Virus record (IMG/VR): IMGVR_UViG_3300025898_000004
Location: 30,452 to 94,451 of that record
Reading direction: 5' to 3' (one strand)
Source: a virus
Lineage: Duplodnaviria; Heunggongvirae; Uroviricota; Caudoviricetes
Length of the DNA: 64,000 nucleotides
Shown here: positions 5,396-64,000 of the stretch, piece by piece
Numbering within the stretch: position 1 is the first letter of the stretch
Layout of the letters: each line of letters begins with the position of its first letter
Program-made: the position numbers and the translations under genes
The notes under the pieces: generated by a model
Told to the model about the DNA's origin: nothing
Seen by the model: only the letters and a program-made list of their open reading frames with translations
The model's database searches: none

Positions 5396-5660
5396 ACTCC
5401 GGTTGCTGAAAGCCACGGATGATGTCCTCTGGACGCTCCGGGCCGTCCCACAGTTGGCACGTGCACAGAACCCCGGTCTGGTGGAGTCCTGTGCGGCCTT
5501 GACACTTCCCGGTGCCTCCGGCGTGCATTCCCCGGTAGTGGCCGCAGGTGCACGCGCTGGGGTCGCGCTGGGGGGTGCGTTGGATTTTGGACAGGCGGCC
5601 GGCGGTGAATCCAGCGATGAGTCCAGCGAGAGCAAGGATGATGTCGGTTATTGCGATCAT
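5394..5660 (-). CDS. hypothetical membrane-anchored Cys-rich protein (88 aa)
   Basis: ORF track; N-terminal hydrophobic helix; ATGA coupling with upstream gene. Confidence 0.45.
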   Translation of the reverse strand: MIAITDIILALAGLIAGFTAGRLSKIQRTPQRDPSACTCGHYRGMHAGGTGKCQGRTGLHQTGVLCTCQLWDGPERPEDIIRGFQQPE

Positions 5661-5997: not shown

Positions 5998-6423
5998 ATG
6001 AACAACGACCTCGGAACCCTCTACGCGGCCCTGTACGTCTCTCACCAGCTTGCCGATCACTGGGTGCAGACCAGCTGTCAGGCTGTCGGCAAAGGCGCAG
6101 AAGGCTGGCCCGGCCGCATCGCGTGCGCCAAACACGTAGCCGGCCACATGGTCACCTCCGTCGTGTGCCTGACCATGCTGAACCTGATCGGCGTGCACAT
6201 CTCGCCCGGCGCGATGGCCGCCGGCCTGGCCGTGGTCGCCGTGACGCACTACTGGGCTGATCGGCGCGCACCGCTCAAGAAGTTGGCGACCCGGTTGGGC
6301 AAGAAGCGGTTTTACGAACTGGGCGACCCGACCCAGAGTCTCGGAACGGGCGCGTATGCGCTCGACCAGTCGTTTCATTTCTGGTGGCTGTTCGTCGCCG
6401 CGATTGTGATGCTGATGGTGTGA
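5998..6423 (+). CDS. DUF3307-like membrane protein (motif ADHWVQT; several TM helices)
   Basis: ORF track; 'LADHWVQT' motif recalled as characteristic of DUF3307; hydrophobic segments. Confidence 0.55.
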   Translation: MNNDLGTLYAALYVSHQLADHWVQTSCQAVGKGAEGWPGRIACAKHVAGHMVTSVVCLTMLNLIGVHISPGAMAAGLAVVAVTHYWADRRAPLKKLATRLGKKRFYELGDPTQSLGTGAYALDQSFHFWWLFVAAIVMLMV

Positions 6424-55558: not shown

Positions 55559-56128
55559 TCACACCTCTTCGTACGTCTTCGCCATCACTGCGGCATTGAC
55601 GGGGTAGCTTTCACCCACGGGTCCGATCATGATGTGGTCGCCCACGTAGAACGGAATCCATGCCTTGTGGAGACGATCGTACACGGCAATACCGCCGTAA
55701 AACGGCGCTGCCGACTCCGGCTTTGGCGCGTCACCGAATTGGTTGCCGTTGCCGGTCTCGTCTAGGGCCAACAGGCCCCATACGTTGCCCTGACACCGGG
55801 TCTTGATGAAATTGGTCATATCGAACAGGTTGCGGCCGGTCCACTGGAGTGCTTCCGGCTCGAACTTCTTACGGTACGTCCGGGGCTCCGGGTTCGCCCG
55901 CGCTTCCGGACTCACCCACGGGTGCCGCTTGTCGTGCGGGTCCTTGGCGGACAGGATGTGCGAGAACCGGTCGTAATACTCGGAATCCTGTTCGGTGTCC
56001 CAGTCTCCATCCCAGAGAACACGGGCCACACTGTAGGCGACCACATCCATATCCATCGGATTGTGGATGTGGTCAATGGTTGCGCGAATGACTTCGTCGA
56101 AGATGTCGACCGCGCTGCCCCATCCCAT
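55559..56128 (-). CDS. hypothetical protein (189 aa)
   Basis: ORF track; RBS 'aaccaaggaggtactga'. Confidence 0.5.
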   Translation of the reverse strand: MGWGSAVDIFDEVIRATIDHIHNPMDMDVVAYSVARVLWDGDWDTEQDSEYYDRFSHILSAKDPHDKRHPWVSPEARANPEPRTYRKKFEPEALQWTGRNLFDMTNFIKTRCQGNVWGLLALDETGNGNQFGDAPKPESAAPFYGGIAVYDRLHKAWIPFYVGDHIMIGPVGESYPVNAAVMAKTYEEV

Positions 56129-56155
56129 TCAGTACCTCCTTGGTTCGGTAGGGTA

Positions 56156-56184
56156 ATCCTACCCTACCGAACCCGGGATGTCAA
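56156..56184 (-). promoter_or_regulatory. conserved promoter class (TTGACA-TCCCGGGTTCGGTAGGG-TAGGAT) overlapped by the 10-bp inverted repeat ttcggtaggg/ccctaccgaa (56144..56171)
   Basis: Seen directly. Confidence 0.5.
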
Positions 56185-58085
56185 CTAATTGGATACTTGT
56201 TCCACGGAATATCCAACAAGTGCACGTCCAACACCGACTCATACCGCCGGACACGCGCCAACAAGTCCCAGAACCGGCAGTCCGACACCAGCACCTCACC
56301 CCGATCGTCCTGGGTACGGATCAGACGACCGATGGACTGCACCACCCGCGTGTGCCGCTGCTCCTCCACGAAGCCCCGGTACCGCCGGTTCATCTGCTCC
56401 ATGACGTGATCGGTCATGCCGTAGAACGACCACAGCACGAGCCGGGTCAGCAACTCACCCGGCAAGTCCAGACCAGTTGCGAAACTGGCCGTACCAATTA
56501 GCGTCGCCGGCCGCCCAGCCTCAACGGCCGCACGATACTTATCCGCTTCCTCATTGGCCTTAAGGGATCCCCCTTCCCGGGGTTGTGTAAAAACGTGAGG
56601 ATGGGTCTTCCAAGAAAGGATATTGGCAATCATCTTCACATCCGCGTGCGACGTGCACAGGATCAGCGACGGCCGCCCGGCCGTGAACGCCGCCACCTCC
56701 GCCAGCCGCGCCCGCACGGTGTCAGAGTCGTCCGCGTTGGATTTCACCCCGGAGTGCTGGGAAATCCAGCCCCGAACCTGACGGGCGTACTGGAACGGGT
56801 GGCCCACGTCAGCGACTTTCACCGTCTTGTCGTACACGCCGCACCGCCGGGGAAGCGTGTCCCCAGCCGTGCCGGTCACCAGCGCGCCGGAACCGATCAT
56901 CCGCGCGATGAACCCCTCATGCGCGGTGATGGGAATCAGCCGGATCTCTCCGGAATTCTCCTCCCCGTGCACGGCGGTCCACTTCTGCACCTGGCTTGAC
57001 CCCTCGGCCAGTTCCGCGATGGTCGCCAACGTATTGAGCGTGTCGACGCCCCGCGCTTCGGGGCCACTCGCGATCAGCTTTTCGCTGATCTCGGTCAATA
57101 CCTGCCGGTACTTCCGGAAATAGGCGACCTCCTGAGACGCGCGCGCCGTGTTGATCGGGCGTTCGCTATCCCACTTGCCCCACGGCTTCCGAACCTCCGT
57201 CGCGAACTCCAGGATCTTCGTCGTCGCTTTCATCAGCTTCTCCCCGCGTTCCGGGGTGATGACCGTGGCGACATCGGAATCGGGGTCCGGCAAGAAAATC
57301 TGACTGCCGGTCCCTTCGGTGAGGGTTCGGGTCTGAAGGTCCCGAATGGTGTCGGGAAGGTGATGCGCCTCATCGATCAAAAGGTCAGCCCAGGCGGGCA
57401 ACAGTTCGGTGATTTGCTTTTCCAACAGGTAGTGATGGAAGTAGAGGAAATGAAAGTTCGTCAAGACGATGTGGACCTGGTGAGCGCGTTCGCGGGCACG
57501 CTTCGAGGCGCACCCGCCGTAGGGGTCGTCACTGCGATACGCGCCGGCACAGTCACAGTAGTCGTCACAGCCTTCGGGGCAGATCCACGGCCGCATCCCG
57601 CCGATGCACGCGCCCGTGCCGGGGCACCGGTATGACTCGTCCAGCCCCTCGGCCCTCAGTTCGCCCTGGGTGGCCCAGTTCGCGGAGTTGCTGTGTTGGG
57701 CCAGCCACGCCTCACGCTGCGCCGGGTCGCGCTGATCGAACCCGGCGAACTGGGCGGCTTTCGAGTCGGCACAAGCATAGTTGTTACTGCCCAGGACACG
57801 GACGAACGTGATACCGGTGGCTTCCGCGATGCGCGGGAGGTCCTTGTTCACGTACTGGTCCAACAGGCTGTTGGTGACCGATGCGATGACGGCCGGGCGG
57901 CCGGGAGTGCCGACGTCGGCCGCGCGGGAGCCCAGCGCGAACGACTTGCCGACGCCGGTTCCGGCCTGGACGAAGATGGGGTTCGCGCGGTCGGCGCACA
58001 GGGCGGAGATCAGGGCGTCCTGTTGGGGTCGCCGGCTGAAACCGGTGTAGGCCAACAGCTTTTCGAACGATGGTGAGGTGTACAC
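56181..58085 (-). CDS. DinG/Rad3-family Fe-S DNA helicase (Walker A 'AGTGVGKS', DEAH box 'LIDEAHHLPD', Cys cluster 'CPGTGACIGG...CPEGC')
   Basis: Motifs read directly; GTG start with RBS 'aaaggagg'. Confidence 0.8.
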   Translation of the reverse strand: MYTSPSFEKLLAYTGFSRRPQQDALISALCADRANPIFVQAGTGVGKSFALGSRAADVGTPGRPAVIASVTNSLLDQYVNKDLPRIAEATGITFVRVLGSNNYACADSKAAQFAGFDQRDPAQREAWLAQHSNSANWATQGELRAEGLDESYRCPGTGACIGGMRPWICPEGCDDYCDCAGAYRSDDPYGGCASKRARERAHQVHIVLTNFHFLYFHHYLLEKQITELLPAWADLLIDEAHHLPDTIRDLQTRTLTEGTGSQIFLPDPDSDVATVITPERGEKLMKATTKILEFATEVRKPWGKWDSERPINTARASQEVAYFRKYRQVLTEISEKLIASGPEARGVDTLNTLATIAELAEGSSQVQKWTAVHGEENSGEIRLIPITAHEGFIARMIGSGALVTGTAGDTLPRRCGVYDKTVKVADVGHPFQYARQVRGWISQHSGVKSNADDSDTVRARLAEVAAFTAGRPSLILCTSHADVKMIANILSWKTHPHVFTQPREGGSLKANEEADKYRAAVEAGRPATLIGTASFATGLDLPGELLTRLVLWSFYGMTDHVMEQMNRRYRGFVEEQRHTRVVQSIGRLIRTQDDRGEVLVSDCRFWDLLARVRRYESVLDVHLLDIPWNKYPIS

Positions 58086-58112
58086 CTCCGGGCCTCCTTT
58101 GGTCTGGCATTG

Positions 58113-58141
58113 ACCCTACCCGACCAGTGTCGGGGTGTCAA
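58113..58141 (-). promoter_or_regulatory. conserved promoter class (TTGACA-CCCCGACACTGGTCGGG-TAGGGT)
   Basis: Seen directly; spacer holds the inverted repeat cccgac/gtcggg. Confidence 0.55.
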
Positions 58142-58196
58142 CTCTTTGGGCGGTGATACAAGAAAGGGGGCAGTGAACTGCCCCCTTTCTTGCGAG

Positions 58197-58724
58197 CTAA
58201 CACTTCCATGAATGATCGTTTACTACCCTTGAAACAGTTGTACGATCAACTCCGTATAGTACGGCGATGTCTTTAACTTTCATTCCCGACTGACGCTTGG
58301 ATTTTATATCCTGAACTATTTCGTTTGAAAGTTTAGATCGTCCGTTTCCTTCTCCGCGAAGCTTAGAGGAATCTTGCCGCATGAAATGTTGATCCCCATA
58401 AGCGTGGCGATTACGCTCAATAGAATCTCTCTTGTTATCTTTGGAACTACCCCACTCCAGATGGTCAGGATTCATACAAGGAGGGGTGTCACGCTTGTGT
58501 CGCGCGTTAGATCCTAGCCTGCCTGTAACGGCCTTCAGTACAGCCCGATTGCCGCGCCAGTTTTTGCCGTCAATGAACAGCTTCGGATACCCGTCCTTAT
58601 CTTTACCTTTTTGCCAAATCCAACAGCCTGTAGACGGATCAATGGAGCACTCTTGTCGAACATCATCGACAAGAGTGCTCCATTGCCACCTAGGCGGTCG
58701 CGGTCTCCCACGGCCAAACGCCAC
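58197..58724 (-). CDS. HNH homing endonuclease (motifs 'DGYPKL', 'CMNPDHLEWG') with C-terminal HTH; lies in a low-GC islet
   Basis: Motifs read directly; local GC clearly lower (58200-58450). Confidence 0.75.
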   Translation of the reverse strand: MAFGRGRPRPPRWQWSTLVDDVRQECSIDPSTGCWIWQKGKDKDGYPKLFIDGKNWRGNRAVLKAVTGRLGSNARHKRDTPPCMNPDHLEWGSSKDNKRDSIERNRHAYGDQHFMRQDSSKLRGEGNGRSKLSNEIVQDIKSKRQSGMKVKDIAVLYGVDRTTVSRVVNDHSWKC

Positions 58725-60456
58725 GCTGCCCCATTTCGATCAACGGAACCAACTTGAAAGTAGAATCTCCCAATCCGCCCAGCTCGTGACGGTTCGTGCC
58801 GGCCGTCATCGCACCCGCGTACCCAGCCAGGTTGAACGAGTACACCGGCACCTCCGCCGGAACGTAGCGGTTCACCGCGTCCGTCCCGCCGTTCCAGCCG
58901 TTCCCCATCAGTTGCATGTCGGAGAACACGAACACCCGCGTGTGCTCCCCGCGCCGGAACGTCTTGGCCAGAGCCTGCGCCAAATCCGTCCCGTGCCCCA
59001 CCGAACCGGCCCGGTTCGTGAACCGCGCAACCTGTTCGATCAGCGCCGCACCGGTCTTGATCTCGTGCGTGAATGTGCCCGTAGCCCACCCGGCCAGGTC
59101 CACGCGACCCCGGTTCCGGAACGCCAACGCCACACCGAACAGAGCCGCCGCGTCCACACACGACACCTGGGACTTCCCAGACATCGGCGCGGACATCGAC
59201 GCCGACGTGTCGACCAGGATCAGCGTGCGCCCGTCCAGCTCCGGAATGTTCTGCGTCGACAGGGTCAGCGCCGTGTTCAGCGCCGAACCCCACCGCAACG
59301 ACCCGGCCGCCATGCGGTACGCGGACAGGAACCGGAACGGGAACTGCTTGCACCGGGCAACCTGGTCCGGGTCCGCCAGCTTTGCCGCGATCACGGCCGC
59401 AACCTTGTCTGACACGCCGGCCTTGTCGAAGTTCGCCAAGTTCCGCAGAAGCGCCATGTAGCCCATGGACGGGATCACGGCCTCCCACGCCTGCGCCGTC
59501 ATGCCCTGGCCGTCCGACAGCCACCCGGACAGCCACTCCCACGTCGCGCCGGCCGCGTCCAAGCGGGGCGTGAGCACGCCAGCCGACAAGGCGTTACGCA
59601 GCCAGGTGCGCCGCTCTGGCACCGGAACAGCCTCCAGCGACGCGCGGTAGCGCACCATCGGGAGGGGAGCGCCCTGTCCGTCGTTCGGCACCGCGTCCGC
59701 CCGGCCGTGCCGGCGGTCCAACAGCCACCGGTAGAGCGCGTTACGGTTGCCCGTGTTCGCGTCGTCCGGGTGGACGATGTCAACGACGTCCCCGAACCGG
59801 ACGCCGTACGCGTTGGTGTCGTACTTCAGGGCGGAGAACTCCGTGTACAGGCGCGGTAGGGTGTCCCCGATGGCGCGCTTCATGCACATGGGGAGCGCCC
59901 GGCCGAACCGCGACCGCCAGTAGGCGATCATCTCGCCCGGTTCGTCGGCGCGCAGCAGCGCCGCCCGCAACAGGTCCCGGTTGCCGCCCTCGATGCCGGC
60001 CTTCAGGCGCGCGTGCACGGCCTCGCAGGCGATGACGATCGGCGCGGTACGCATGTTGCCCTTGCGCCGCAACCAGTCCACGAACGGCAACAGCCACTCC
60101 AAACCGGTGTCCGGATTCGCGGCGTGCTCGCGGCTGGCCACGGTGTGCGCCGCCGTCGCCATGAACGCCGTCGCCACGGCCTTGGACAGGGTCCGGCTTG
60201 CGCTGTCGGTCGCGATGGCGGCCGCCAGGTCCCGCACACGCTGTACGGTCGCGTCGCCAGTCTCGTAGAACTTGTTCTCCGCGATGAACCCGGCCGTGGC
60301 TGTCAGGAACAGCTGGCCCTGGTCCGTGCGGGCAAACGACGGCGCACCCTCGAACGTGCGCGCTGACGCGCGCCGGTCCACGACAATCGGCGACAATCCG
60401 CCTGCGCCGACACCGACACGACCGAACGTGTCCGGCAACTTGTTGAACTTGGACAT
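58690..60456 (-). CDS. rsr: Ro60 orthologue (Rsr): TROVE domain plus vWA domain with MIDAS motif 'DTSASM'
   Basis: Domain pattern read from ORF 58690..60594; ATG 60456 (MSKFNKLPDTFG) has RBS 'aaccaaggagtgtggagt'. Confidence 0.75.
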   Translation of the reverse strand: MSKFNKLPDTFGRVGVGAGGLSPIVVDRRASARTFEGAPSFARTDQGQLFLTATAGFIAENKFYETGDATVQRVRDLAAAIATDSASRTLSKAVATAFMATAAHTVASREHAANPDTGLEWLLPFVDWLRRKGNMRTAPIVIACEAVHARLKAGIEGGNRDLLRAALLRADEPGEMIAYWRSRFGRALPMCMKRAIGDTLPRLYTEFSALKYDTNAYGVRFGDVVDIVHPDDANTGNRNALYRWLLDRRHGRADAVPNDGQGAPLPMVRYRASLEAVPVPERRTWLRNALSAGVLTPRLDAAGATWEWLSGWLSDGQGMTAQAWEAVIPSMGYMALLRNLANFDKAGVSDKVAAVIAAKLADPDQVARCKQFPFRFLSAYRMAAGSLRWGSALNTALTLSTQNIPELDGRTLILVDTSASMSAPMSGKSQVSCVDAAALFGVALAFRNRGRVDLAGWATGTFTHEIKTGAALIEQVARFTNRAGSVGHGTDLAQALAKTFRRGEHTRVFVFSDMQLMGNGWNGGTDAVNRYVPAEVPVYSFNLAGYAGAMTAGTNRHELGGLGDSTFKLVPLIEMGQRGVWPWETATA

Positions 60457-60480
60457 ACTCCACACTCCTTGGTTTGAGCA

Positions 60481-60525
60481 ACAAAAAAGGAGATGCCCAC
60501 ATGCCGGCTGATACTCGGCATGTGA
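60481..60525 (-). terminator. hairpin cacatgccg/cggcatgtg followed on the minus strand by CTCCTTTTTTGTTG, immediately upstream of the rsr RBS
   Basis: Seen directly. Confidence 0.55.
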
Positions 60526-60700
60526 ACACCTCCCGTGTGTGAACGTTTCCCCCGCAGGGGACCGACGCGCCGGGTGCGGACATCTTCCGGACAACGTAGC
60601 TCACTCGGTTACGCGCGCCGCGCCCAGGAATCGAACCTGATCTAGTGGGTTTGGAATCCACTGTCCGCACACAGCGGCCGCGACTTAAGTTGGCTCCCAC
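60481..60700 (-). ncRNA. candidate Y RNA (YrlA-like): tRNA-like domain (60616..60684; canonical T-arm tcagg-TTCGATT-cctgg, Trp-like anticodon loop TTCCAAA, imperfect acceptor and D arm) followed by about 90 nt and a terminator
   Basis: Element does not fold as a canonical tRNA; adjacent to Ro60 gene; bacterial Y RNAs with tRNA-like modules beside rsr are established (recalled). Confidence 0.45.
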
Positions 60701-60830
60701 TTCGTTGGTGTCCTTACGCACGAACCGGCAGGAAGCCTACATCCATCCGCGTGCGTAAAGTGACGGCTTCGGGGACTTGATCCCGTCACGTGCTACTAGA
60801 GGCGATGCCCCGGAGTCCCAGCACCTTCCG

Positions 60831-60901
60831 AAGCGGACACGGGATTCGAACCCGTATGGACAGCTTTGCAGGCTGCTACCTAGCCATTCGGTCAGTCCGC
60901 C
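60831..60901 (-). tRNA. tRNA-Cys (GCA)
   Basis: Manual cloverleaf fold: acceptor ggcggac/gtccgct, anticodon arm gcagc-ctGCAaa-gctgt, T-arm acggg-TTCGAAT-cccgt; 71 nt, no CCA. Confidence 0.75.
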
Positions 60902-61019
60902 ATGACGGCCGTGCCCTATGCTGCGGGACACGGACGCCAACTCCCTCACCGTGGATGGTGAGAATGGAGAGCACAACTTTTCAGGAACCTGCACCGGTGT
61001 CCGTAGGTGCTGTGCTCAG

Positions 61020-61094
61020 TAGTCCTACCCGGATTCGAACCGGGAACCTCCACCACCTCAAGGTGACGCCTCTGCCATGTTGGGCTATAGGACC
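61020..61094 (-). tRNA. tRNA-Leu (GAG), atypical class-I-like form with 5-nt variable loop, A73
   Basis: Manual fold: ggtccta|ta|gccc-aacatggcag-aggc|g|tcacc-ttGAGgt-ggtgg|aggtt|cccgg-TTCGAAT-ccggg|taggact|a. Confidence 0.65.
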
Positions 61095-61104
61095 AGGGGA
61101 CCGC

Positions 61105-61344
61105 TCACGCGGCCGTGTCGACTGTGGCGCGGGTACGCCACCGCCGGTAGTTCAGTACTCCCACCGCGACCATACCGAGGTTCATCACAAATCCCCAGTA
61201 TCCGGTTGCGATGCCGAACGCCACCATGCCCAGTTGCACGGCGACCAGCACAACCCACCCGCTGATCTTCCCGCGCCCCACGAGCCACGCGGACAAGATG
61301 TTGAACGGGCCGAACAAGAACGTGGACGCTAACGCTACGTTCAT
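61105..61344 (-). CDS. small hydrophobic protein (79 aa, 2 TM) embedded in the tRNA array
   Basis: ORF track; strong RBS 'caccaaggagatggt' before ATG. Confidence 0.5.
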   Translation of the reverse strand: MNVALASTFLFGPFNILSAWLVGRGKISGWVVLVAVQLGMVAFGIATGYWGFVMNLGMVAVGVLNYRRWRTRATVDTAA

Positions 61345-61364
61345 ACCATCTCCTTGGTGAGGAG

Positions 61365-61440
61365 TAGTCCTACTGGGATTCGAACCCAGAACCTCCCGGA
61401 CCTGAACCGGACGCCTCTGCCAAAGTTGGGCTATAGGACC
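61365..61440 (-). tRNA. tRNA-Leu (CAG), atypical class-I-like form with 5-nt variable loop, A73
   Basis: Manual fold: same architecture as 61020..61094; anticodon arm tccgg-ttCAGgt-ccggg. Confidence 0.65.
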
Positions 61441-61540
61441 GTGACGTGAGCGCTACCACAACGCTCACGTTTCATACACAACACCGTTCCGTGCTGTCAT
61501 CGCGAACCGTCAGAGGCACCCTGATTAACCCCGACAGTCG

Positions 61541-61611
61541 TACCGCACGAGGGATTCGAACCCCCACGGGAGTGGTTTACAGCCACGCCGGCACAACCAA
61601 CGCTGTACGGT
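61541..61611 (-). tRNA. tRNA-Tyr (GTA) candidate with short D loop and 5-nt variable loop
   Basis: T-arm ggggg-TTCGAAT-ccctc, acceptor accgtac/gtgcggt, anticodon arm cgtgg-ctGTAaa-ccact; D arm fold poor. Confidence 0.5.
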
Positions 61612-61746
61612 ATGAAAGCGGCCTCATCCCTAGCCGCCACGGTGGACCCACAACAGCAGATTCACGAATGAACCCACTTTCCTCGCTTCCCACTTCCGGT
61701 CTGCCGCAACACCTCGGAAAGGCTCGGCCTTTTACAACGACAAACG

Positions 61747-61820
61747 TAGCCCCTACGGGATTCGAACCCGCGATATCCTGGATGAAAGCCAGGCGGCTTA
61801 GGCCACTTGCCTAAGGGGCT
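61747..61820 (-). tRNA. tRNA-Glu (TTC)
   Basis: Manual fold: agcccct|ta|ggca-agtggccta-agcc|g|cctgg-ctTTCat-ccagg|atatc|gcggg-TTCGAAT-cccgt|aggggct|a. Confidence 0.75.
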
Positions 61821-61832
61821 TTAATTACTGCG

Positions 61833-61906
61833 TAGCCGCGCCGGGATTCGAACCCGGAACCTTCCCCTTTTGAGGGGGACGCCTCTGCCTATTGGGCTAA
61901 GCGGCC
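61833..61906 (-). tRNA. tRNA-Leu (CAA), atypical class-I-like form with 5-nt variable loop, A73
   Basis: Manual fold: ggccgct|ta|gccc-aataggcag-aggc|g|tcccc-ctCAAaa-gggga|aggtt|ccggg-TTCGAAT-cccgg|cgcggct|a (7:66 mismatch). Confidence 0.65.
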
Positions 61907-62046
61907 CAGATGGTGACTTTCTGTCGTAGGGGTTTCACAGCACTCGGACGGTTACGACAGTAAACCGCTACCCTTGCGTTGCCTGCGTCCCTTTGCGTCT
62001 AGCGTCCAGGCGATCAAGCTGGACGGTCACCCACTAGCCGATAACG

Positions 62047-62119
62047 TAGCGCATACGGGGCTCGAACCCGTGACCTCCCGGCTGAGAACCGGGTGTTCCG
62101 CCAATTGAACTAATGCGCC
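62047..62119 (-). tRNA. tRNA-Glu (CTC)
   Basis: Manual fold: ggcgcat|ta|gttc-aattggcg-gaac|a|cccgg-ttCTCag-ccggg|aggtc|acggg-TTCGAGC-cccgt|atgcgct|a. Confidence 0.7.
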
Positions 62120-62120
62120 A

Positions 62121-62197
62121 TGGCACCCTTAGAGAGATTCGAACTCCCGACAACCCGGATCCGTAATCCGGTGCTCTATCCACTGAGCTATAAGGGC
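62121..62197 (-). tRNA. tRNA-Arg (ACG) with encoded CCA
   Basis: Manual fold: gccctta|ta|gctc-agtggata-gagc|a|ccgga-ttACGga-tccgg|gttgtc|gggag-TTCGAAT-ctctc|taagggt|g|cca. Confidence 0.7.
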
Positions 62198-62198
62198 T

Positions 62199-62275
62199 TG
62201 GGTTGACCGACGGGACTCGAACCCGCATAAACCACACTCACAATGTGGGGCCTTGTCCATTAGGCTACAGTCAAC
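62199..62275 (-). tRNA. tRNA-His (GTG) with encoded G-1, C73 and CCA
   Basis: Manual fold: g|ttgactg|ta|gcct-aatggaca-aggc|c|ccaca-ttGTGag-tgtgg|tttat|gcggg-TTCGAGT-cccgt|cggtcaa|c|cca; 1-nt spacers to both neighbouring tRNAs. Confidence 0.75.
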
Positions 62276-62276
62276 G

Positions 62277-62350
62277 TCCCACCCCCGGGAATCGAACCCG
62301 GAACCTTCGGTTTCGGAAACCGATGCTCTGTCCTGTTGAGCTAAAGCGGG
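62277..62350 (-). tRNA. tRNA-Arg (CCG)
   Basis: Manual fold: cccgctt|ta|gctc-aacaggaca-gagc|a|tcggt-ttCCGaa-accga|aggtt|ccggg-TTCGATT-cccgg|gggtggg|a; three G-U pairs in acceptor. Confidence 0.6.
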
Positions 62351-62528
62351 TTACCGCTCATTGCGGTAATGTTCCTCGAACACAGGCTGCGATACCCGGG
62401 CAAGCTTCAAATACAACTCCCTGTGACCCGGATTCGCATTATCCCAATTCAAATCCACGTGATATCCGTGGATAATGCTAAACATTGCTCTCGCGGCTTC
62501 GATGATCAAAGGAGAATCTTCGGTCACG
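62351..62528. other. low-GC spacer inside the tRNA array carrying two perfect hairpins (ttaccgc/gcggtaa 62351-62369; atccacg/cgtggat 62451-62471); no tRNA fold
   Basis: Seen directly; minus-strand 44-codon ORF has low GC3 and no SD, so probably noncoding. Confidence 0.4.
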
Positions 62529-62600
62529 TCCCCCTCCGGGGAGTCGAACCCCGACCCTACCGTTTAGGAAACGGTCGCTCCTCCGTTGCGCTTGAGGGGG
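62529..62600 (-). tRNA. tRNA-Arg (CCT)
   Basis: Manual fold: ccccctc|aa|gcgc-aacggag-gagc|g|accgt-ttCCTaa-acggt|agggt|cgggg-TTCGACT-ccccg|gaggggg|a. Confidence 0.7.
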
Positions 62601-62682
62601 ATTAGGTGCCCCGTCCGGTGCGGCAAACACCGAAACGGGGCGATGTTCACGAATCCCTAGCCAGGGCTCTTTGATGTGAACG

Positions 62683-62767
62683 CGGAAGCTAAGGGATTCG
62701 AACCCTTGGGACACGAGGCCCACGTCATTAGCAGTGACGCCCAATCGGCCAGCTCTGGCAAGCTTCC
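62683..62767 (-). tRNA. tRNA-Ser (GCT), class II with 15-nt variable arm
   Basis: Manual fold: ggaagct|tg|cca-gagctggccgat-tgg|g|cgtca-ctGCTaa-tgacg|tgggcctcgtgtccc|aaggg-TTCGAAT-ccctt|agcttcc|g. Confidence 0.75.
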
Positions 62768-63056
62768 TCATCGCGTGTGGAGCCCGGGCGACCGGTTACT
62801 TTCCCGCCAGGCGCAGCGATAGCCACCGCCGCACCATTCCGCAAGTGTTGTATCCCCCTCTTTTGGGGACCCGGAACTCATTCACACGAAGCAAGATCGG
62901 GGCAGGCCCGTACGCGACCCGTTTCAGCTATCCCGTGGCCGTCTAGAACAGCCTTGGGAATCAACGCCTATCCGTGCTTATCATCCAGCCACATCGAAAC
63001 GGTCCCTTGGGTATCGCGGGACACTGGGCCTTGACGATTTATGACGGTCCCCAACG
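62768..63056 (-). other. 289-nt tRNA-free gap inside the tRNA array with internal repeats (gggaccgt x2) and stem-loops; candidate ncRNA or degenerate tRNA
   Basis: No TTCGA T-loop anywhere in the interval; no convincing ORF (ORF-track hits overlap tRNAs). Confidence 0.3.
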
Positions 63057-63137
63057 CAGAGGGTAAAGGAATCGAACCCTTAGGTGTCACCCTAGCCCGG
63101 ACTTCGAAACCGGTTTGCCGCCACGGCGCTACCCTCC
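63057..63137 (-). tRNA. tRNA-Ser (CGA), class II with 15-nt variable arm
   Basis: Manual fold: ggagggt|ag|...|ccggt-ttCGAag-tccgg|gctagggtgacacct|aaggg-TTCGATT-ccttt|accctct|g; D arm short. Confidence 0.65.
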
Positions 63138-63207
63138 GAGACGCGCCCCCTCTAGGTCGCCACCGAAGAGAGGGGACGCTCACCCGCCGACACGGCAACG
63201 GGTGTAG

Positions 63208-63278
63208 AGCGGATGACGGGAATCGAACCCGCGTCTTTAGTTTGGAAGACTATGACTCTGCCATTGAGCTACATCCGC
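63208..63278 (-). tRNA. tRNA-Gly (TCC), U73
   Basis: Manual fold: gcggatg|ta|gctc-aatggca-gagt|c|atagt-ctTCCaa-actaa|agac|gcggg-TTCGATT-cccgt|catccgc|t. Confidence 0.75.
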
Positions 63279-63284
63279 ATTGCG

Positions 63285-63527
63285 TTACTCTGGATATTCA
63301 ACAGCTCCCGGAATGAGACTGCCCAACAGGCGAAACTGATCTGGGTAGGCCCGCGCCGCCGCCTGCGACATGATCATTCGTTGGAGCACGTGAATGTGAT
63401 GACAGGACTCGGTCAGGTCATCCATTCGCGTCGGACCGTCCGCCACGATCCGGCACATGTTCATGTGCACCTGACCAAGCATCACGGCCGTTTCTTTTTC
63501 GAGTTGCGTCAACAGTTCCGAGTCCAC
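63285..63527 (-). CDS. hypothetical protein (80 aa, GTG start) embedded in the tRNA array
   Basis: ORF track; moderately high GC3; weak RBS. Confidence 0.3.
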   Translation of the reverse strand: MDSELLTQLEKETAVMLGQVHMNMCRIVADGPTRMDDLTESCHHIHVLQRMIMSQAAARAYPDQFRLLGSLIPGAVEYPE

Positions 63528-63573
63528 GCCACCCCGAATGCTAGTAGCAATATTGTCTTGCGGCGAAACAACG

Positions 63574-63646
63574 CTGACCTAACTGGACTCGAACCAGCAT
63601 CCCCCAACTTAACAGGATGGTGCTCTGCCAATTGAGCTATAGGTCA
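63574..63646 (-). tRNA. tRNA-Asn (GTT), G73
   Basis: Manual fold: tgaccta|ta|gctc-aattggca-gagc|a|ccatc-ctGTTaa-gttgg|gggat|gctgg-TTCGAGT-ccagt|taggtca|g (one T-T mismatch in anticodon stem). Confidence 0.65.
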
Positions 63647-63886
63647 TTAGGCCCGTCCCCCAGGTCTTTCACCCGGAATGCCACAGTCGCGAACCATGAG
63701 CATTGCTTTAATATGCTGGGACGGATGGAAGCCCGATAGGTGGATCTCCGCCACAGCCTCACCAGTGGTGAGCGGTATCGTGTTTCATCACCATTGTGGG
63801 TACCGCACTTGGGGTTGAACTCCGGCACTCGGGCCAACATGCCGGATGGTATAAACCCGGAACGCGAGGAACCGGGCGGGAAAACG

Positions 63887-63962
63887 TGGCAGCGGTGGGA
63901 TTTGAACCCACGATCTCCGACTTATGAGGACGGCGAGGACGACCGAACTCCTCTACGCTGCT
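63887..63962 (-). tRNA. tRNA with CAT anticodon (Met, or Ile2 if lysidinylated); 1:72 A-C mismatch
   Basis: Manual fold: agcagcg|ta|gagg-agttcggtcgt-cctc|g|ccgtc-ctCATaa-gtcgg|agatc|gtggg-TTCAAAT-cccac|cgctgcc|a. Confidence 0.6.
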
Positions 63963-64000
63963 CTAGATGGCACACGGGCAGTGGTGCTTGCGCCCCTAAA

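What the first reader, a model, noticed from the sequence alone, without database searches (positions are those of the whole stretch)
58690..60700. Ro60 (Rsr) gene with an adjacent tRNA-like element that is probably a Y RNA (YrlA-type)
ORF 58690..60456 encodes a TROVE plus vWA(MIDAS) protein, the architecture of Ro60. Directly upstream on the same strand, the first element of the tRNA cluster (60616..60684) has a perfect T-arm and a Trp-like anticodon loop (TTCCAAA). It cannot form a canonical acceptor or D arm, so it is tRNA-like rather than a tRNA. It is followed by about 90 nt and a hairpin plus U-run terminator (60481..60525) placed only 25 nt before the rsr RBS. Bacterial and mycobacteriophage Y RNAs (YrlA) with tRNA-mimicking domains encoded beside rsr are established. 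This locus fits that pattern, and the terminator-before-RBS arrangement suggests read-through or attenuation control of rsr.
Basis: partly seen in the sequence, partly recalled or inferred. Interest (0 to 1): 0.7.

Follow-up and report, generated by a model that had tools for sequence, protein, structure and literature searches.

The report
Phage Ro60 gene beside compact tRNA-Trp
A soil phage carries a real Ro60 (Rsr) gene, but the tRNA-like element beside it is most likely the phage's own unusually compact tryptophan tRNA; the Y RNAs that probably partner Ro60 lie further up the same tRNA array, just outside the window.

Summary
The ORF 58690..60456(-) is a genuine Ro60/Rsr. It has a TROVE domain, an intact MIDAS motif in a vWA domain, and a predicted fold that matches every solved Ro60.

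The element 60616..60684(-) is real and conserved in 12 related metagenomic phages, but it is not a YrlA-type Y RNA.
- It folds as a normal-topology cloverleaf: a 6-bp acceptor stem plus a G.G, a 4-bp D stem with a 3-5 nt loop, an anticodon arm with invariant CCA, and a canonical T arm.
- Each of the four helices carries a compensatory change.
- The discriminator G73 is invariant, and the 3' trailer matches that of the neighbouring tRNAs.
- It is the only Trp decoder in a 31-gene tRNA array that covers the other 19 amino acids, in four complete clusters.
- Rfam YrlA and my own actinophage YrlA model match only its T arm.

Two textbook YrlA-type genes do exist, 3.7 and 4.5 kb upstream on the same strand, beyond window position 64000.

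The terminator (60483..60534) is real and conserved. It is the tRNA operon's terminator, and rsr probably depends on read-through.

A previously undescribed, covariation-supported pseudoknotted RNA (60692..60824) lies just 5' of the tRNA.

The parts
58690..60456 (-). rsr: phage Ro60 orthologue (588 aa; TROVE HEAT-repeat ring plus vWA/MIDAS)
   Evidence: Pfam TROVE E=1.1e-16. phmmer to phiLo Ro60 9KOP, E=8e-23. The AF2 model (pLDDT 79.7) matches all solved Ro60 structures over full length, TM up to 0.74. MIDAS residues are invariant. There are 5672 homologues at E<=1e-30; the best named ones are TROVE or Ro-like RNA-binding proteins.
60465..60470 (-). Shine-Dalgarno AAGGAG of rsr, 8 nt before ATG 60456
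   Evidence: Read from the sequence. The same AACCAAGGAG follows the terminator in relatives.
60483..60534 (-). Intrinsic terminator of the tRNA operon: a roughly 20-bp hairpin (60489-60534) plus U6 (60483-60488)
   Evidence: MFE -36.1 kcal/mol, z = -5.9, 0 of 200 shuffles fold as well. Conserved at 79-87% in relatives, with the core GGUGUUCAC...GUGGGCACC plus a U-run retained.
60535..60615 (-). Variable filler between the tRNA and the terminator (small hairpins); not conserved
   Evidence: Shared only with L009/L010 (91%). Absent in L008/L022 and replaced by unrelated hairpins in L006 and L013-L015. This removes the 3' partner of the long stem predicted.
60616..60684 (-). Compact tRNA-Trp(CCA). 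Acceptor 60679-60684 pairs with 60617-60622 (G7 60678 and G66 60623 are mismatched). D stem 60674-60677 pairs with 60665-60668, with a 5-nt loop. Anticodon stem 60658-60662 pairs with 60644-60648. Anticodon CCA is at 60652-60654. T arm is 60624-60640. Discriminator G is at 60616.
   Evidence: RNAalifold predicts the cloverleaf. 91% of cells are paired against 37-47% in slid controls, and each helix has a compensatory pair. Orthologues in L015 and L018 are called tRNA-Trp by ARAGORN. It is the only Trp decoder in four complete clusters. The 3' trailer G73-C-G is the same as in about 20 of 29 neighbouring tRNAs. It is conserved at 75-99%, like tRNA-Cys and tRNA-Leu.
60692..60824 (-). Conserved structured RNA of unknown function in the tRNA-Cys/tRNA-Trp spacer. 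P1 pairs 60820-60824 with 60790-60794. The P2 hairpin is 60760-60789. The long hairpin A is 60713-60759. Its loop (60731-60737) pairs with 60692-60698 to form an H-type pseudoknot.
   Evidence: 95.5% of cells are paired, and 16 of 31 pairs show changes on both sides, including 3 of 7 pseudoknot pairs; slid controls give 31-59%. My model R1 finds it only at this position (104 bits) and not in distant Ro60 phages. There is no Rfam match. It is absent in L016 and L011.
60830..60901 (-). tRNA-Cys(GCA), the canonical tRNA preceding the spacer (context)
   Evidence: ARAGORN; Rfam tRNA 55.2 bits.

Best explanation
The interval is the junction between a phage tRNA operon and a phage Ro60 gene.

60616..60684(-) is the last gene of a 31-gene tRNA array. 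It is a structurally reduced tRNA-Trp(CCA) with no 8-9 linker, a 4-bp D stem with a 3-5 nt loop, and a G7.G66 mismatch.

Inferred mechanism for the tRNA:
- It is cut out of the polycistronic precursor like its neighbours.
- It receives CCA after the encoded G73-C74.
- Host TrpRS charges it through C34, C35, A36 and G73.
- It supplies UGG decoding during infection.

The hairpin plus U6 at 60483..60534 terminates the tRNA operon. In this genome no promoter fits in the 26 nt before the rsr ATG, so rsr is probably expressed from transcripts that read through this terminator (inferred).

Rsr is a bona fide Ro60 ring protein. Its likely RNA partners are two YrlA-type Y RNAs encoded 3.7 and 4.5 kb upstream in the same array and on the same strand, outside the window. 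By analogy with Deinococcus, Salmonella and phage phiLo, these would tether it to an exoribonuclease such as PNPase (inferred from homology, not shown).
For: Ro60:
- TROVE domain, MIDAS motif and full-length fold match.

tRNA:
- Cloverleaf predicted by RNAalifold and by the single-sequence centroid fold.
- Compensatory changes in all four helices; 91% of cells paired against 37-47% when partners are slid.
- Invariant CCA anticodon and 7-nt loop, invariant G73 and C74.
- ARAGORN calls the orthologues in L015 and L018 tRNA-Trp, and L011 at a relaxed threshold.
- The complete clusters of L019 (the same genome as the window, 2 mismatches in 13274 nt), L022, L023 and L024 encode tRNAs for 19 amino acids and never a canonical Trp.
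- The trailer signature N73-C-G is shared with about 20 of 29 cluster tRNAs.
- Conservation equals that of the flanking tRNAs.
- Unrelated IMG/VR phage tRNA clusters carry tRNA-Trp genes with the same GG-AUUCCAAAC-CC anticodon arm and shortened D arms. Some have an encoded G73-CCA end.

Not YrlA:
- No RF02553 hit at E<=10.
- My model R2, built from 16 actinophage YrlA cores, matches only the T arm (12.3 bits, 60625-60639). It scores 79.6 and 70.4 bits on the two true modules, though these were training sequences.

Real YrlA genes:
- RF02553 local hits of 39.2 and 34.4 bits in tRNA-free gaps.
- Conserved in L022-L024, with covarying closed acceptor-like hairpins.
- The MFE fold shows a long 5'/3' stem and a GCGAA motif.

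Terminator.
Against: - The window copy fails every standard tRNA detector. ARAGORN misses it even at an 80% threshold, RF00005 is below threshold, and the best score is 21.2 bits to tRNA-Sec.
- G7.G66 is mismatched in 12 of 13 sequences and A31.C39 in 11 of 13.
- There is no U8/N9 linker and the D loop is only 3-5 nt. Canonical D/T-loop tertiary contacts are therefore doubtful, and function with bacterial EF-Tu and the ribosome is unproven.
- Most compensatory changes trace to one deep split between two clades, so there are few independent events.
- There are no expression, processing or aminoacylation data.
- Read-through of the terminator is an inference. In some relatives a promoter-like TTGACA-17-TAGTCT follows the terminator, so the coupling is not universal.
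Confidence: 0.72

Rival explanations
1. One reading: the element is a Y RNA (YrlA-type, or a Deinococcus Yrn1-like tRNA mimic that is not permuted) bound by the adjacent Ro60.
For: - It lies 160 nt upstream of rsr on the same strand and escapes the tRNA detectors.
- Bacterial Y RNAs are tRNA mimics encoded next to rsr (PMC4201824).
- Yrn1 is modelled with a native-order T arm and anticodon-like arm (PMC4201824).
- A CGAA motif lies 17 nt upstream, at 60701-60704, in 6 of 11 relatives.
Against: - There is no YrlA hit with Rfam or with an actinophage-tuned model; only the T arm matches.
- The topology is a closed cloverleaf with its ends in the acceptor stem, and nothing extends the stem beyond G73.
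- The long stem seen in the single-sequence fold is not conserved.
- The CGAA is replaced by GUAAA or CAAA in 5 of 11 relatives.
- Two genuine YrlA-type genes already exist in the same array.
- The element fills the single missing amino-acid specificity of the tRNA set.
Confidence: 0.07
2. It is a tRNA-Trp mimic that does not work in translation. It could be a decoy for a host tRNA-targeting defence nuclease, or for TrpRS or tRNA-modifying enzymes.
For: - The reduced D arm and the two conserved mismatches could impair use by the ribosome while keeping the anticodon loop and G73 intact.
- From my own knowledge of the literature: phage tRNA arrays are thought to counter host anticodon nucleases.
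Against: - The exact complementarity to the 19 other specificities in four genomes argues for a decoding role.
- Other phage clusters carry similarly compact tRNA-Trp genes, and other compact tRNAs, as their only Trp gene, with encoded CCA.
Confidence: 0.12
3. It is a decaying tRNA-Trp pseudogene with no function.
For: It fails the tRNA detectors and has a truncated D arm and mismatches in two stems.
Against: - It is retained in all 13 lineages, whose Ro60 proteins are only 57-83% identical to the window's.
- Base pairs are kept through compensatory changes.
- It is as conserved as the functional tRNAs next to it.
- The anticodon loop, T loop and G73 are invariant.
Confidence: 0.04

Closest known systems
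YrlA Y RNAs of Salmonella, Mycobacterium smegmatis and mycobacteriophages (Rfam RF02553; Chen et al. 2014, PMC4201824)
   Same: They are encoded on the same strand within about 4 kb of rsr and contain a tRNA-type T arm. The two upstream modules of this phage (L019 5453-5524 and 6220-6292) have the full permuted T / closed acceptor-like hairpin / D core, a YUAC motif, a GCGAA motif and a long 5'/3' stem.
   Different: The flagged element has native tRNA order, a real anticodon arm with CCA and free ends at the acceptor stem. It has no long Ro-binding stem. Only its T arm matches the YrlA models.
Thermus phage phiLo Ro60 with Yrl1/Yrl2 (PMC12135203; PDB 9KOP, 9L5Y)
   Same: It is a phage-encoded Ro60 with the same fold (best Foldseek and phmmer hit) and Y RNA-like genes upstream of the gene. 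It forms a RYPER-like complex with host PNPase.
   Different: Sequence identity is only about 20%. Here rsr is embedded in a 31-gene tRNA operon, and the Y RNA candidates are of the tRNA-mimicking YrlA type.
Compact or irregular tRNAs: the 8/4 tRNAs of phage clusters (PMC5389517), D-arm-reduced mitochondrial tRNAs, and the compact tRNA-Trp genes found here in IMG/VR contigs (L032, L034, L036-L039)
   Same: These are non-canonical cloverleaves inside phage tRNA clusters. The IMG/VR tRNA-Trp genes share the GG-AUUCCAAAC-CC anticodon arm (A31.C39), G73 and a shortened D region.
   Different: The window's version has no 8-9 linker, a G7.G66 mismatch and no encoded CCA. It is more reduced than those ARAGORN accepts. 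Mitochondrial reduced tRNAs work with specialised factors that are not known here.
Deinococcus radiodurans Yrn1
   Same: It is a Ro-bound RNA modelled with a T arm and an anticodon-like arm in native order.
   Different: In Yrn1 the 5'/3' stem is long and carries the Ro-binding site, and its 'anticodon loop' has 6 nt. Here the stem is a 6-7 bp acceptor stem ending in G73, and the loop is a standard 7-nt Trp anticodon loop.

Membership tests
Ro60/Rsr (TROVE plus vWA) | TROVE domain above the curated profile threshold | tested here: met
   PF05731 scores 61.5 bits against a cut-off of 23, E=1.1e-16.
Ro60/Rsr (TROVE plus vWA) | C-terminal vWA domain with MIDAS motif DxSxS...T...D | tested here: met
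   D416, S418, S420, T490 and D513 are invariant in 40 homologues. vWA structures follow the Ro60 hits in the fold search. Pfam VWA_2 alone is below its cut-off (23.6 against 27).
Ro60/Rsr (TROVE plus vWA) | Full-length fold equals the HEAT-repeat ring closed by vWA, as in solved Ro60 structures | tested here: met
   The top 13 Foldseek PDB hits are all Ro60 (9kop, 9l5y, 1yvp, 2i91, 2nvo, 9nen), aligned over 500-606 columns with target-normalised TM 0.59-0.74. The model has pLDDT 79.7.
Ro60/Rsr (TROVE plus vWA) | Binds Y RNA or misfolded RNA | not testable with these tools
   Needs RIP or EMSA.
YrlA-type Y RNA (the flagged element 60616-60684) | Match to Rfam RF02553 (gathering score 69 bits) | tested here: not met
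   No YrlA hit at E<=10 in a 401-nt or a 6-kb scan.
YrlA-type Y RNA (the flagged element 60616-60684) | Permuted tRNA-like core: T arm, then a closed acceptor-like hairpin, then a D arm | tested here: not met
   The order is acceptor-D-anticodon-T-acceptor. Model R2 matches only the T arm, at 12.3 bits.
YrlA-type Y RNA (the flagged element 60616-60684) | Long 5'/3' stem with a GNCGAA/CGAA motif enclosing the core | tested here: not met
   The stem seen in the single-sequence MFE fold loses its 3' strand in L006, L008 and L022. Nothing pairs beyond G73.
YrlA-type Y RNA (the flagged element 60616-60684) | Encoded near rsr on the same strand | tested here: met
   It lies 160 nt upstream on the minus strand.
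tRNA (tRNA-Trp) | Cloverleaf of four helices kept by compensatory substitutions | tested here: met
   Five pairs change on both sides, at least one per helix. 91.3% of cells are paired. 0 of 500 shuffles reach the covariation score.
tRNA (tRNA-Trp) | Recognised by general tRNA models (RF00005 at 29 bits or more; ARAGORN) | tested here: not met
   The window copy is not called. Orthologues in L015 and L018 are called tRNA-Trp by ARAGORN.
tRNA (tRNA-Trp) | Canonical T loop, and a 7-nt anticodon loop with U33 and a purine at position 37 | tested here: met
   UUCGAUU/UUCAAUU and (U/C)UCCAAA; the anticodon CCA and A37 are invariant.
tRNA (tRNA-Trp) | U8/N9 linker and an 8-11 nt D loop with G18G19 | tested here: not met
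   The linker is 0 nt. The D loop is UGUGU, UGGCU or UGG, and GG is present in only 7 of 13 sequences.
tRNA (tRNA-Trp) | Bacterial Trp identity set: C34, C35, A36 and discriminator G73 (established knowledge) | tested here: met
   All four are invariant in 13 sequences. Canonical actinophage tRNA-Trp genes also have G73.
tRNA (tRNA-Trp) | Fills a decoding need: the only Trp gene in the array | tested here: met
   Each of the four complete clusters holds 27-30 other ARAGORN-called tRNA genes (one call in L019 and one in L023 is the V+T arm of YrlA-A) covering 19 amino acids, with no other Trp gene.
tRNA (tRNA-Trp) | Aminoacylation and use in translation | not testable with these tools
   Needs a charging assay or tRNA-seq.
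Intrinsic (factor-independent) terminator | Stable GC-rich hairpin immediately followed by a U-run, conserved in position | tested here: met
   -36.1 kcal/mol, z = -5.9, followed by U6. Present in all relatives after the tRNA-Trp gene. The simple scanner missed it. Termination efficiency was not tested.

The most novel reading that the evidence does not exclude
The compact tRNA-Trp-like RNA, alone or together with the conserved pseudoknotted RNA immediately 5' of it (60692-60824), is not only, or not at all, a translational tRNA. It would instead be a further RNA ligand or substrate of the phage Ro60: a tRNA mimic in native order, made from the same transcript that reads through into rsr. That would define a new Y RNA class and a new RNA motif tied to phage Ro60.
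Probability: 0.1. Interest if true: 0.7.

Novelty: new variant of a known kind. Interest (0 to 1): 0.4.

Why it matters
Phage Ro60 with YrlA-type Y RNAs is established biology, so that part is ordinary. It is another, quite divergent member: about 38% identical to cultured actinophage proteins.

Three things are worth keeping.
1. An entire family of soil actinophage-like genomes relies on a strongly reduced tRNA (no 8-9 linker, a 3-5 nt D loop, a conserved G7.G66) as its only Trp decoder. Standard tRNA finders miss this gene, so such genomes would be annotated as lacking tRNA-Trp. If it is functional, it shows that bacterial translation tolerates mitochondria-like D-arm reduction.
2. In this family rsr, two YrlA genes and about 30 tRNAs form one co-oriented array, with rsr downstream of the array's terminator. 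That arrangement suggests they are expressed together.
3. A new, well-supported pseudoknotted RNA sits inside that array.

The case is also a caution. A T arm next to rsr is not enough to call a Y RNA. Conversely, YrlA V+T arms are mis-called as odd tRNAs, for example 'tRNA-Asn(att)'.

Tried and rejected
- **DNA searches for close relatives.** Megablast of the locus against 50,697 phage records gave no match. IMG/VR searches with the Ro60 protein and with exact DNA patterns found only distant relatives or none. Close relatives came only from metagenome protein look-ups.
- **Single-sequence MFE of the whole 374-nt spacer.** It suggested a long stem (GUGCGGAC.../...GUCCGCAC) closing three hairpins, which looks like a Y RNA. 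I rejected it because the 3' strand is missing in L006, L008 and L022 and the region is replaced in others.
- **Extended acceptor stem (Yrn1-like).** I looked for one and found no pairing or conservation beyond G73-C74.
- **The spacer RNA as a known family.** I considered hammerhead, HDV-like, T-box, tmRNA and manA. There is no Rfam hit at E<=10 and the helix order does not fit HDV-like. Model R1 finds the RNA nowhere else in the window or in distant Ro60 phage loci.
- **The simple terminator scanner.** It missed the terminator. The hairpin is longer than the scanner's limits, so I relied on folding instead.
- **YrlA-like hits of model R2 and Rfam inside the window** (for example 62166-62234 and 62244-62312). 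These are junctions of adjacent tRNAs, the known 'dimeric tRNA' false positive (PMC4201824).
- **Genome contigs pattern scan.** It gave only chance matches in coding or other DNA.
Full report
**What is at the coordinates.** On the minus strand the window reads, 5' to 3':
- tRNA-Cys (60830-60901)
- a 145-nt spacer
- the flagged element (60616-60684)
- about 80 nt of small hairpins
- a long hairpin plus U6 (60483-60534)
- AAGGAG (60465-60470)
- the ATG of a 588-aa ORF (60456) that ends at 58690

ARAGORN finds 16 tRNAs between 60830 and 63962, all on the minus strand, but does not call the flagged element.

**The protein is Ro60.**
- Pfam TROVE is well above its threshold (E=1.1e-16). VWA_2 is just below its cut-off.
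- In a 40-sequence alignment the MIDAS residues D416, S418, S420, T490 and D513 are invariant, and the N-terminus MSKFN is shared, which fixes the start codon.
- The only PDB sequence hits are the Ro60 of Thermus phage phiLo (9KOP/9L5Y, E=8e-23).
- An AlphaFold model (pLDDT 79.7) hits every solved Ro60 before anything else: phiLo, Xenopus, human and Deinococcus Rsr, over 500-606 aligned columns with target-normalised TM up to 0.74.
- The closest cultured-phage proteins are 'Ro-like RNA binding proteins' of Streptomyces, Arthrobacter and Gordonia phages at 35-39% identity. Cellular TROVE proteins of Actinomadura, Microbispora and Streptosporangium are about 49% identical.
- The genome is therefore a novel soil phage of an actinobacterial host, and this part of the finding stands.

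**Relatives.** No DNA match exists in the phage record collection, and IMG/VR holds only distant relatives. The protein database holds Ro60 proteins 51-83% identical. I fetched their contigs. I also fetched the window's own genome with 10 kb more upstream: L019 has 2 mismatches in 13274 nt against the window, and window coordinate = 70457 minus L019 coordinate. All relatives share the order tRNA-Cys, spacer, element, terminator, (small ORF), rsr, (variable ORF), DinG-like helicase.

**The flagged element is a cloverleaf with its ends in the acceptor stem.**
- It is 75-99% identical across 12 relatives, the same range as the neighbouring tRNA-Cys and tRNA-Leu genes.
- In a 13-sequence alignment RNAalifold predicts an acceptor stem of 6 bp, a 4-bp D stem with a 5-nt loop (3 nt in two sequences), a 5-bp anticodon stem and a 5-bp T stem.
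- Counting pairs on that structure gives 91.3% standard pairs, against 37-47% when partners are slid by 1-3 columns.
- Five pairs change on both sides, at least one in every helix: 18-77 CG/GC/UG, 22-32 CG/UA, 23-31 GC/AU, 38-52 UA/CG and 59-73 CG/AU.
- The changes come mainly from one deep clade split plus L009, so independent events are few. Every helix is still supported.
- Two positions are conserved non-pairs: G7.G66 in 12 of 13 sequences (C-G in L012) and A31.C39 in 11 of 13 (U-A in L015 and L018).
- The anticodon CCA, the 7-nt loop, the T loop, the discriminator G and the next base C are invariant.
What is true is that the D region is strongly reduced, with no 8-9 linker and a 3-5 nt loop.

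**Why I read it as the phage's tRNA-Trp.**
1. ARAGORN calls the orthologues in L015 and L018 tRNA-Trp(cca) of 68 nt, and L011 at a relaxed threshold. The window copy is never called, and Rfam gives it only 21.2 bits against tRNA-Sec.
2. The full array of this very genome (L019 3683-9627) has 30 ARAGORN-called tRNA genes. One of them, 'tRNA-Asn(att)', is really the V+T arm of YrlA-A (see below). The set covers 19 amino acids, and only Trp is missing. The same holds for the complete arrays of L022, L023 and L024. The element supplies exactly the missing specificity.
3. G73 with C34, C35 and A36 is the bacterial Trp identity set (established knowledge). Canonical tRNA-Trp genes of phages BRock, Atuin and L005 also end in G73.
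4. The trailer G73-C-G is the signature of about 20 of the 29 other tRNAs in the array, so the same 3' processing and CCA completion is expected.
5. A pattern search of IMG/VR for the anticodon arm found nine phage contigs with tRNA-Trp genes carrying the same GG-AUUCCAAAC-CC arm. Seven have shortened D regions and several an encoded G73-CCA end. In the contigs where a fuller tRNA array is held (L032, L037), this gene is the only Trp gene, and no Ro60 lies in the stretches held. Compact tRNA-Trp genes are thus a recurrent phage feature, independent of rsr.

**Why it is not a YrlA-type Y RNA.** By Chen et al. 2014 (PMC4201824), YrlA has:
- a 5' GNCGAA motif
- a long 5'/3' stem
- an optional V hairpin
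- then a T arm, a closed acceptor-like hairpin and a D arm

Tests against that definition:
- Rfam RF02553 gives no hit on the element at E<=10, even in a 401-nt scan.
- I built a model from 16 actinophage YrlA cores. With filters off it matches only the T arm of the element (12.3 bits, 60625-60639). All full-length hits in 56000-64000 are junctions between adjacent tRNAs, the known dimeric-tRNA artefact.
- The Y RNA-like long stem in the single-sequence fold is not conserved. Its 3' strand lies in the variable filler, which is missing in L008 and L022 and replaced in other relatives.

**Where the Y RNAs are.**
- Relatives of this Ro60 in cultured phages have sub-threshold YrlA hits beside rsr (VanLee 47 bits, BRock 32-33, Atuin 32).
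- In this genome Rfam finds two local YrlA hits in tRNA-free gaps of the array: L019 5457-5521 (39.2 bits) and 6224-6290 (34.4 bits). The alignments show T arm, closed hairpin and GUAGCUCA..GG.AGAGC D arm.
- Both are conserved in L022-L024, with covarying closed hairpins.
- Both carry GAUGCGAAG, GGGUUACUUC (the YUAY motif) and a long terminal stem (GGAAAGAGGUGACC/GGCCACCUCUUUCC; GACACCGA/UCGGUGUC).
- They lie 4.5 and 3.7 kb upstream of rsr on the same strand. In window coordinates that is about 64892-65053 and 64122-64275, just past the window end at 64000.

**Terminator and rsr expression.**
- The hairpin 60489-60534 (-36 kcal/mol, z = -5.9) plus U6 is a strong intrinsic terminator. It is conserved after the tRNA-Trp gene in all relatives, with an invariant core GGUGUUCAC...GUGGGCACC.
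- It is the terminator of the tRNA operon.
- What follows it varies:
  - in the window and in L015, the rsr RBS comes directly
  - in L008, L009 and L006, a 70-91 aa ORF
  - in L013, L014, L016, L017, L011, L012 and L022, a 50-aa ORF with a Pfam T7 gp5.9 hit
  - in L016, L011, L017 and L012, between the terminator and that small-ORF RBS, and in L018, where no intervening ORF was called, between the terminator and the rsr RBS: a TTGACA-17-TAGTCT-like promoter
- In the window there is no room for a promoter in the 26 nt before the ATG, so read-through is the likeliest source of rsr mRNA. This is an inference, and nothing suggests a specific attenuation mechanism.

**An unexpected extra.**
- The spacer between tRNA-Cys and tRNA-Trp (60692-60824) is a conserved structured RNA in 11 of 13 relatives. 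It consists of a P1 stem, a P2 hairpin, and a long hairpin whose loop (GGCUUCC) pairs with GGGAGCC just before the tRNA, forming an H-type pseudoknot.
- 95.5% of cells are paired, and 16 of 31 pairs change on both sides, including three in the pseudoknot helix. Slid controls give 31-59%.
- It has no Rfam match, and my model finds it nowhere else in the window or in distant Ro60 phages.
- L016 and L011 lack it but keep the tRNA-Trp gene and rsr, so neither depends on it.
- Its function is unknown. A CGAA in its 3' linker (60701-60704) is present in only 6 of 11 sequences, so I do not read it as a Ro-binding motif.

**Verdict.** The Ro60 gene is confirmed as a new, divergent member of a known family. 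The terminator is confirmed. The tRNA-like element is most likely a compact tRNA-Trp (confidence about 0.7), not a Y RNA (about 0.07). A non-translational tRNA mimic or decoy cannot be excluded (about 0.12). Overall interest is moderate. The Ro60/Y RNA aspect is known biology. The reduced tRNA-Trp that standard tools miss and the new pseudoknotted RNA are the points worth following up.

Noticed in passing
window 60692-60824 (-): A conserved RNA of about 130 nt with an H-type pseudoknot lies between tRNA-Cys and the compact tRNA-Trp. Covariation is strong (16 of 31 pairs). It has no Rfam family and occurs only in this phage family. It is absent in L016 and L011. Its function is unknown.
   Followed up: partly
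L019 about 5404-5565 and 6182-6335 (window-equivalent about 64892-65053 and 64122-64275, outside the window): Two YrlA-type Y RNA genes sit inside the tRNA array on the same strand as rsr. They have the permuted T / closed hairpin / D core, a GCGAA motif and a long terminal stem. Both are conserved in L022-L024.
   Followed up: yes
L019 6195-6250 compared with window 60624-60660: The 5' half of YrlA-B (GGAAUCCAAACC ... CAGGUUCGAUUCCUGG) is nearly identical to the anticodon-loop and T-arm half of the compact tRNA-Trp (GGAUUCCAAACC ... CAGGUUCGAUUCCUGG). This hints that this Y RNA arose from a tRNA-Trp copy fused to the D arm of a following tRNA.
   Followed up: no
L019 5417-5487; L023 2317-2390; L003 (phage VanLee) 2695-2766: ARAGORN's 'tRNA-Asn(att)' and 'tRNA-Asn(gtt)', and VanLee's annotated tRNA-Arg(tct) (Rfam tRNA only 26.9 bits), overlap YrlA-like modules. 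The V+T arms of Y RNAs are being annotated as odd tRNAs.
   Followed up: partly
Between the terminator and rsr: window 60457-60482; L008 2769-2981; L013 2845-2997 and others: This is a variable slot. Relatives carry either a 50-aa ORF with a Pfam Phage_T7_Gp5_9 hit or an unrelated 70-91 aa ORF. The window and L015 carry none. Some relatives also have a TTGACA-17-TAGTCT promoter here.
   Followed up: partly
window 58641-58684 (-): A perfect 19-bp hairpin with a 6-nt loop starts 6 nt after the rsr stop codon and has no U-run. It could be a terminator or stability element, or the edge of an inserted gene.
   Followed up: no
window 58197-58724 (-), and the same slot in relatives: A 175-aa ORF with a C-terminal HTH (weak Pfam hits only) overlaps the rsr 3' end. 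To my eye its N-terminal half looks like a phage homing-endonuclease type. In relatives the rsr-helicase gap instead holds Bro-N, ANT-like or IS605 OrfB/TnpB genes, so this appears to be a hot spot for mobile genes.
   Followed up: no
IMG/VR loci L032, L033, L034, L036-L039: Unrelated phage contigs carry compact tRNA-Trp genes with the same anticodon arm (A31.C39) and shortened D arms, several with an encoded G73-CCA. In L032, L036, L037 and L038 they sit in tRNA clusters alongside other short tRNAs (Ala, Cys, Tyr). ARAGORN does not call the ones in L033, L034 and L039.
   Followed up: partly
window 61105-61344 (-) and 62351-62527 (-): Small ORFs are embedded in the tRNA array. One is 79 aa, hydrophobic, with a weak PnuC/NMN-transporter-like hit. 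The other is 58 aa. Both were called as genes in the contigs of the same genome (L019, L021).
   Followed up: no
L001 (Streptomyces phage BRock) 5079-5242: A near-threshold manA RNA hit (49.7 bits, gathering score 55.2, E=3.7e-10) lies between two tRNA-Lys genes, 500 nt downstream of that phage's rsr. This is another structured RNA inside an rsr-linked tRNA array.
   Followed up: no
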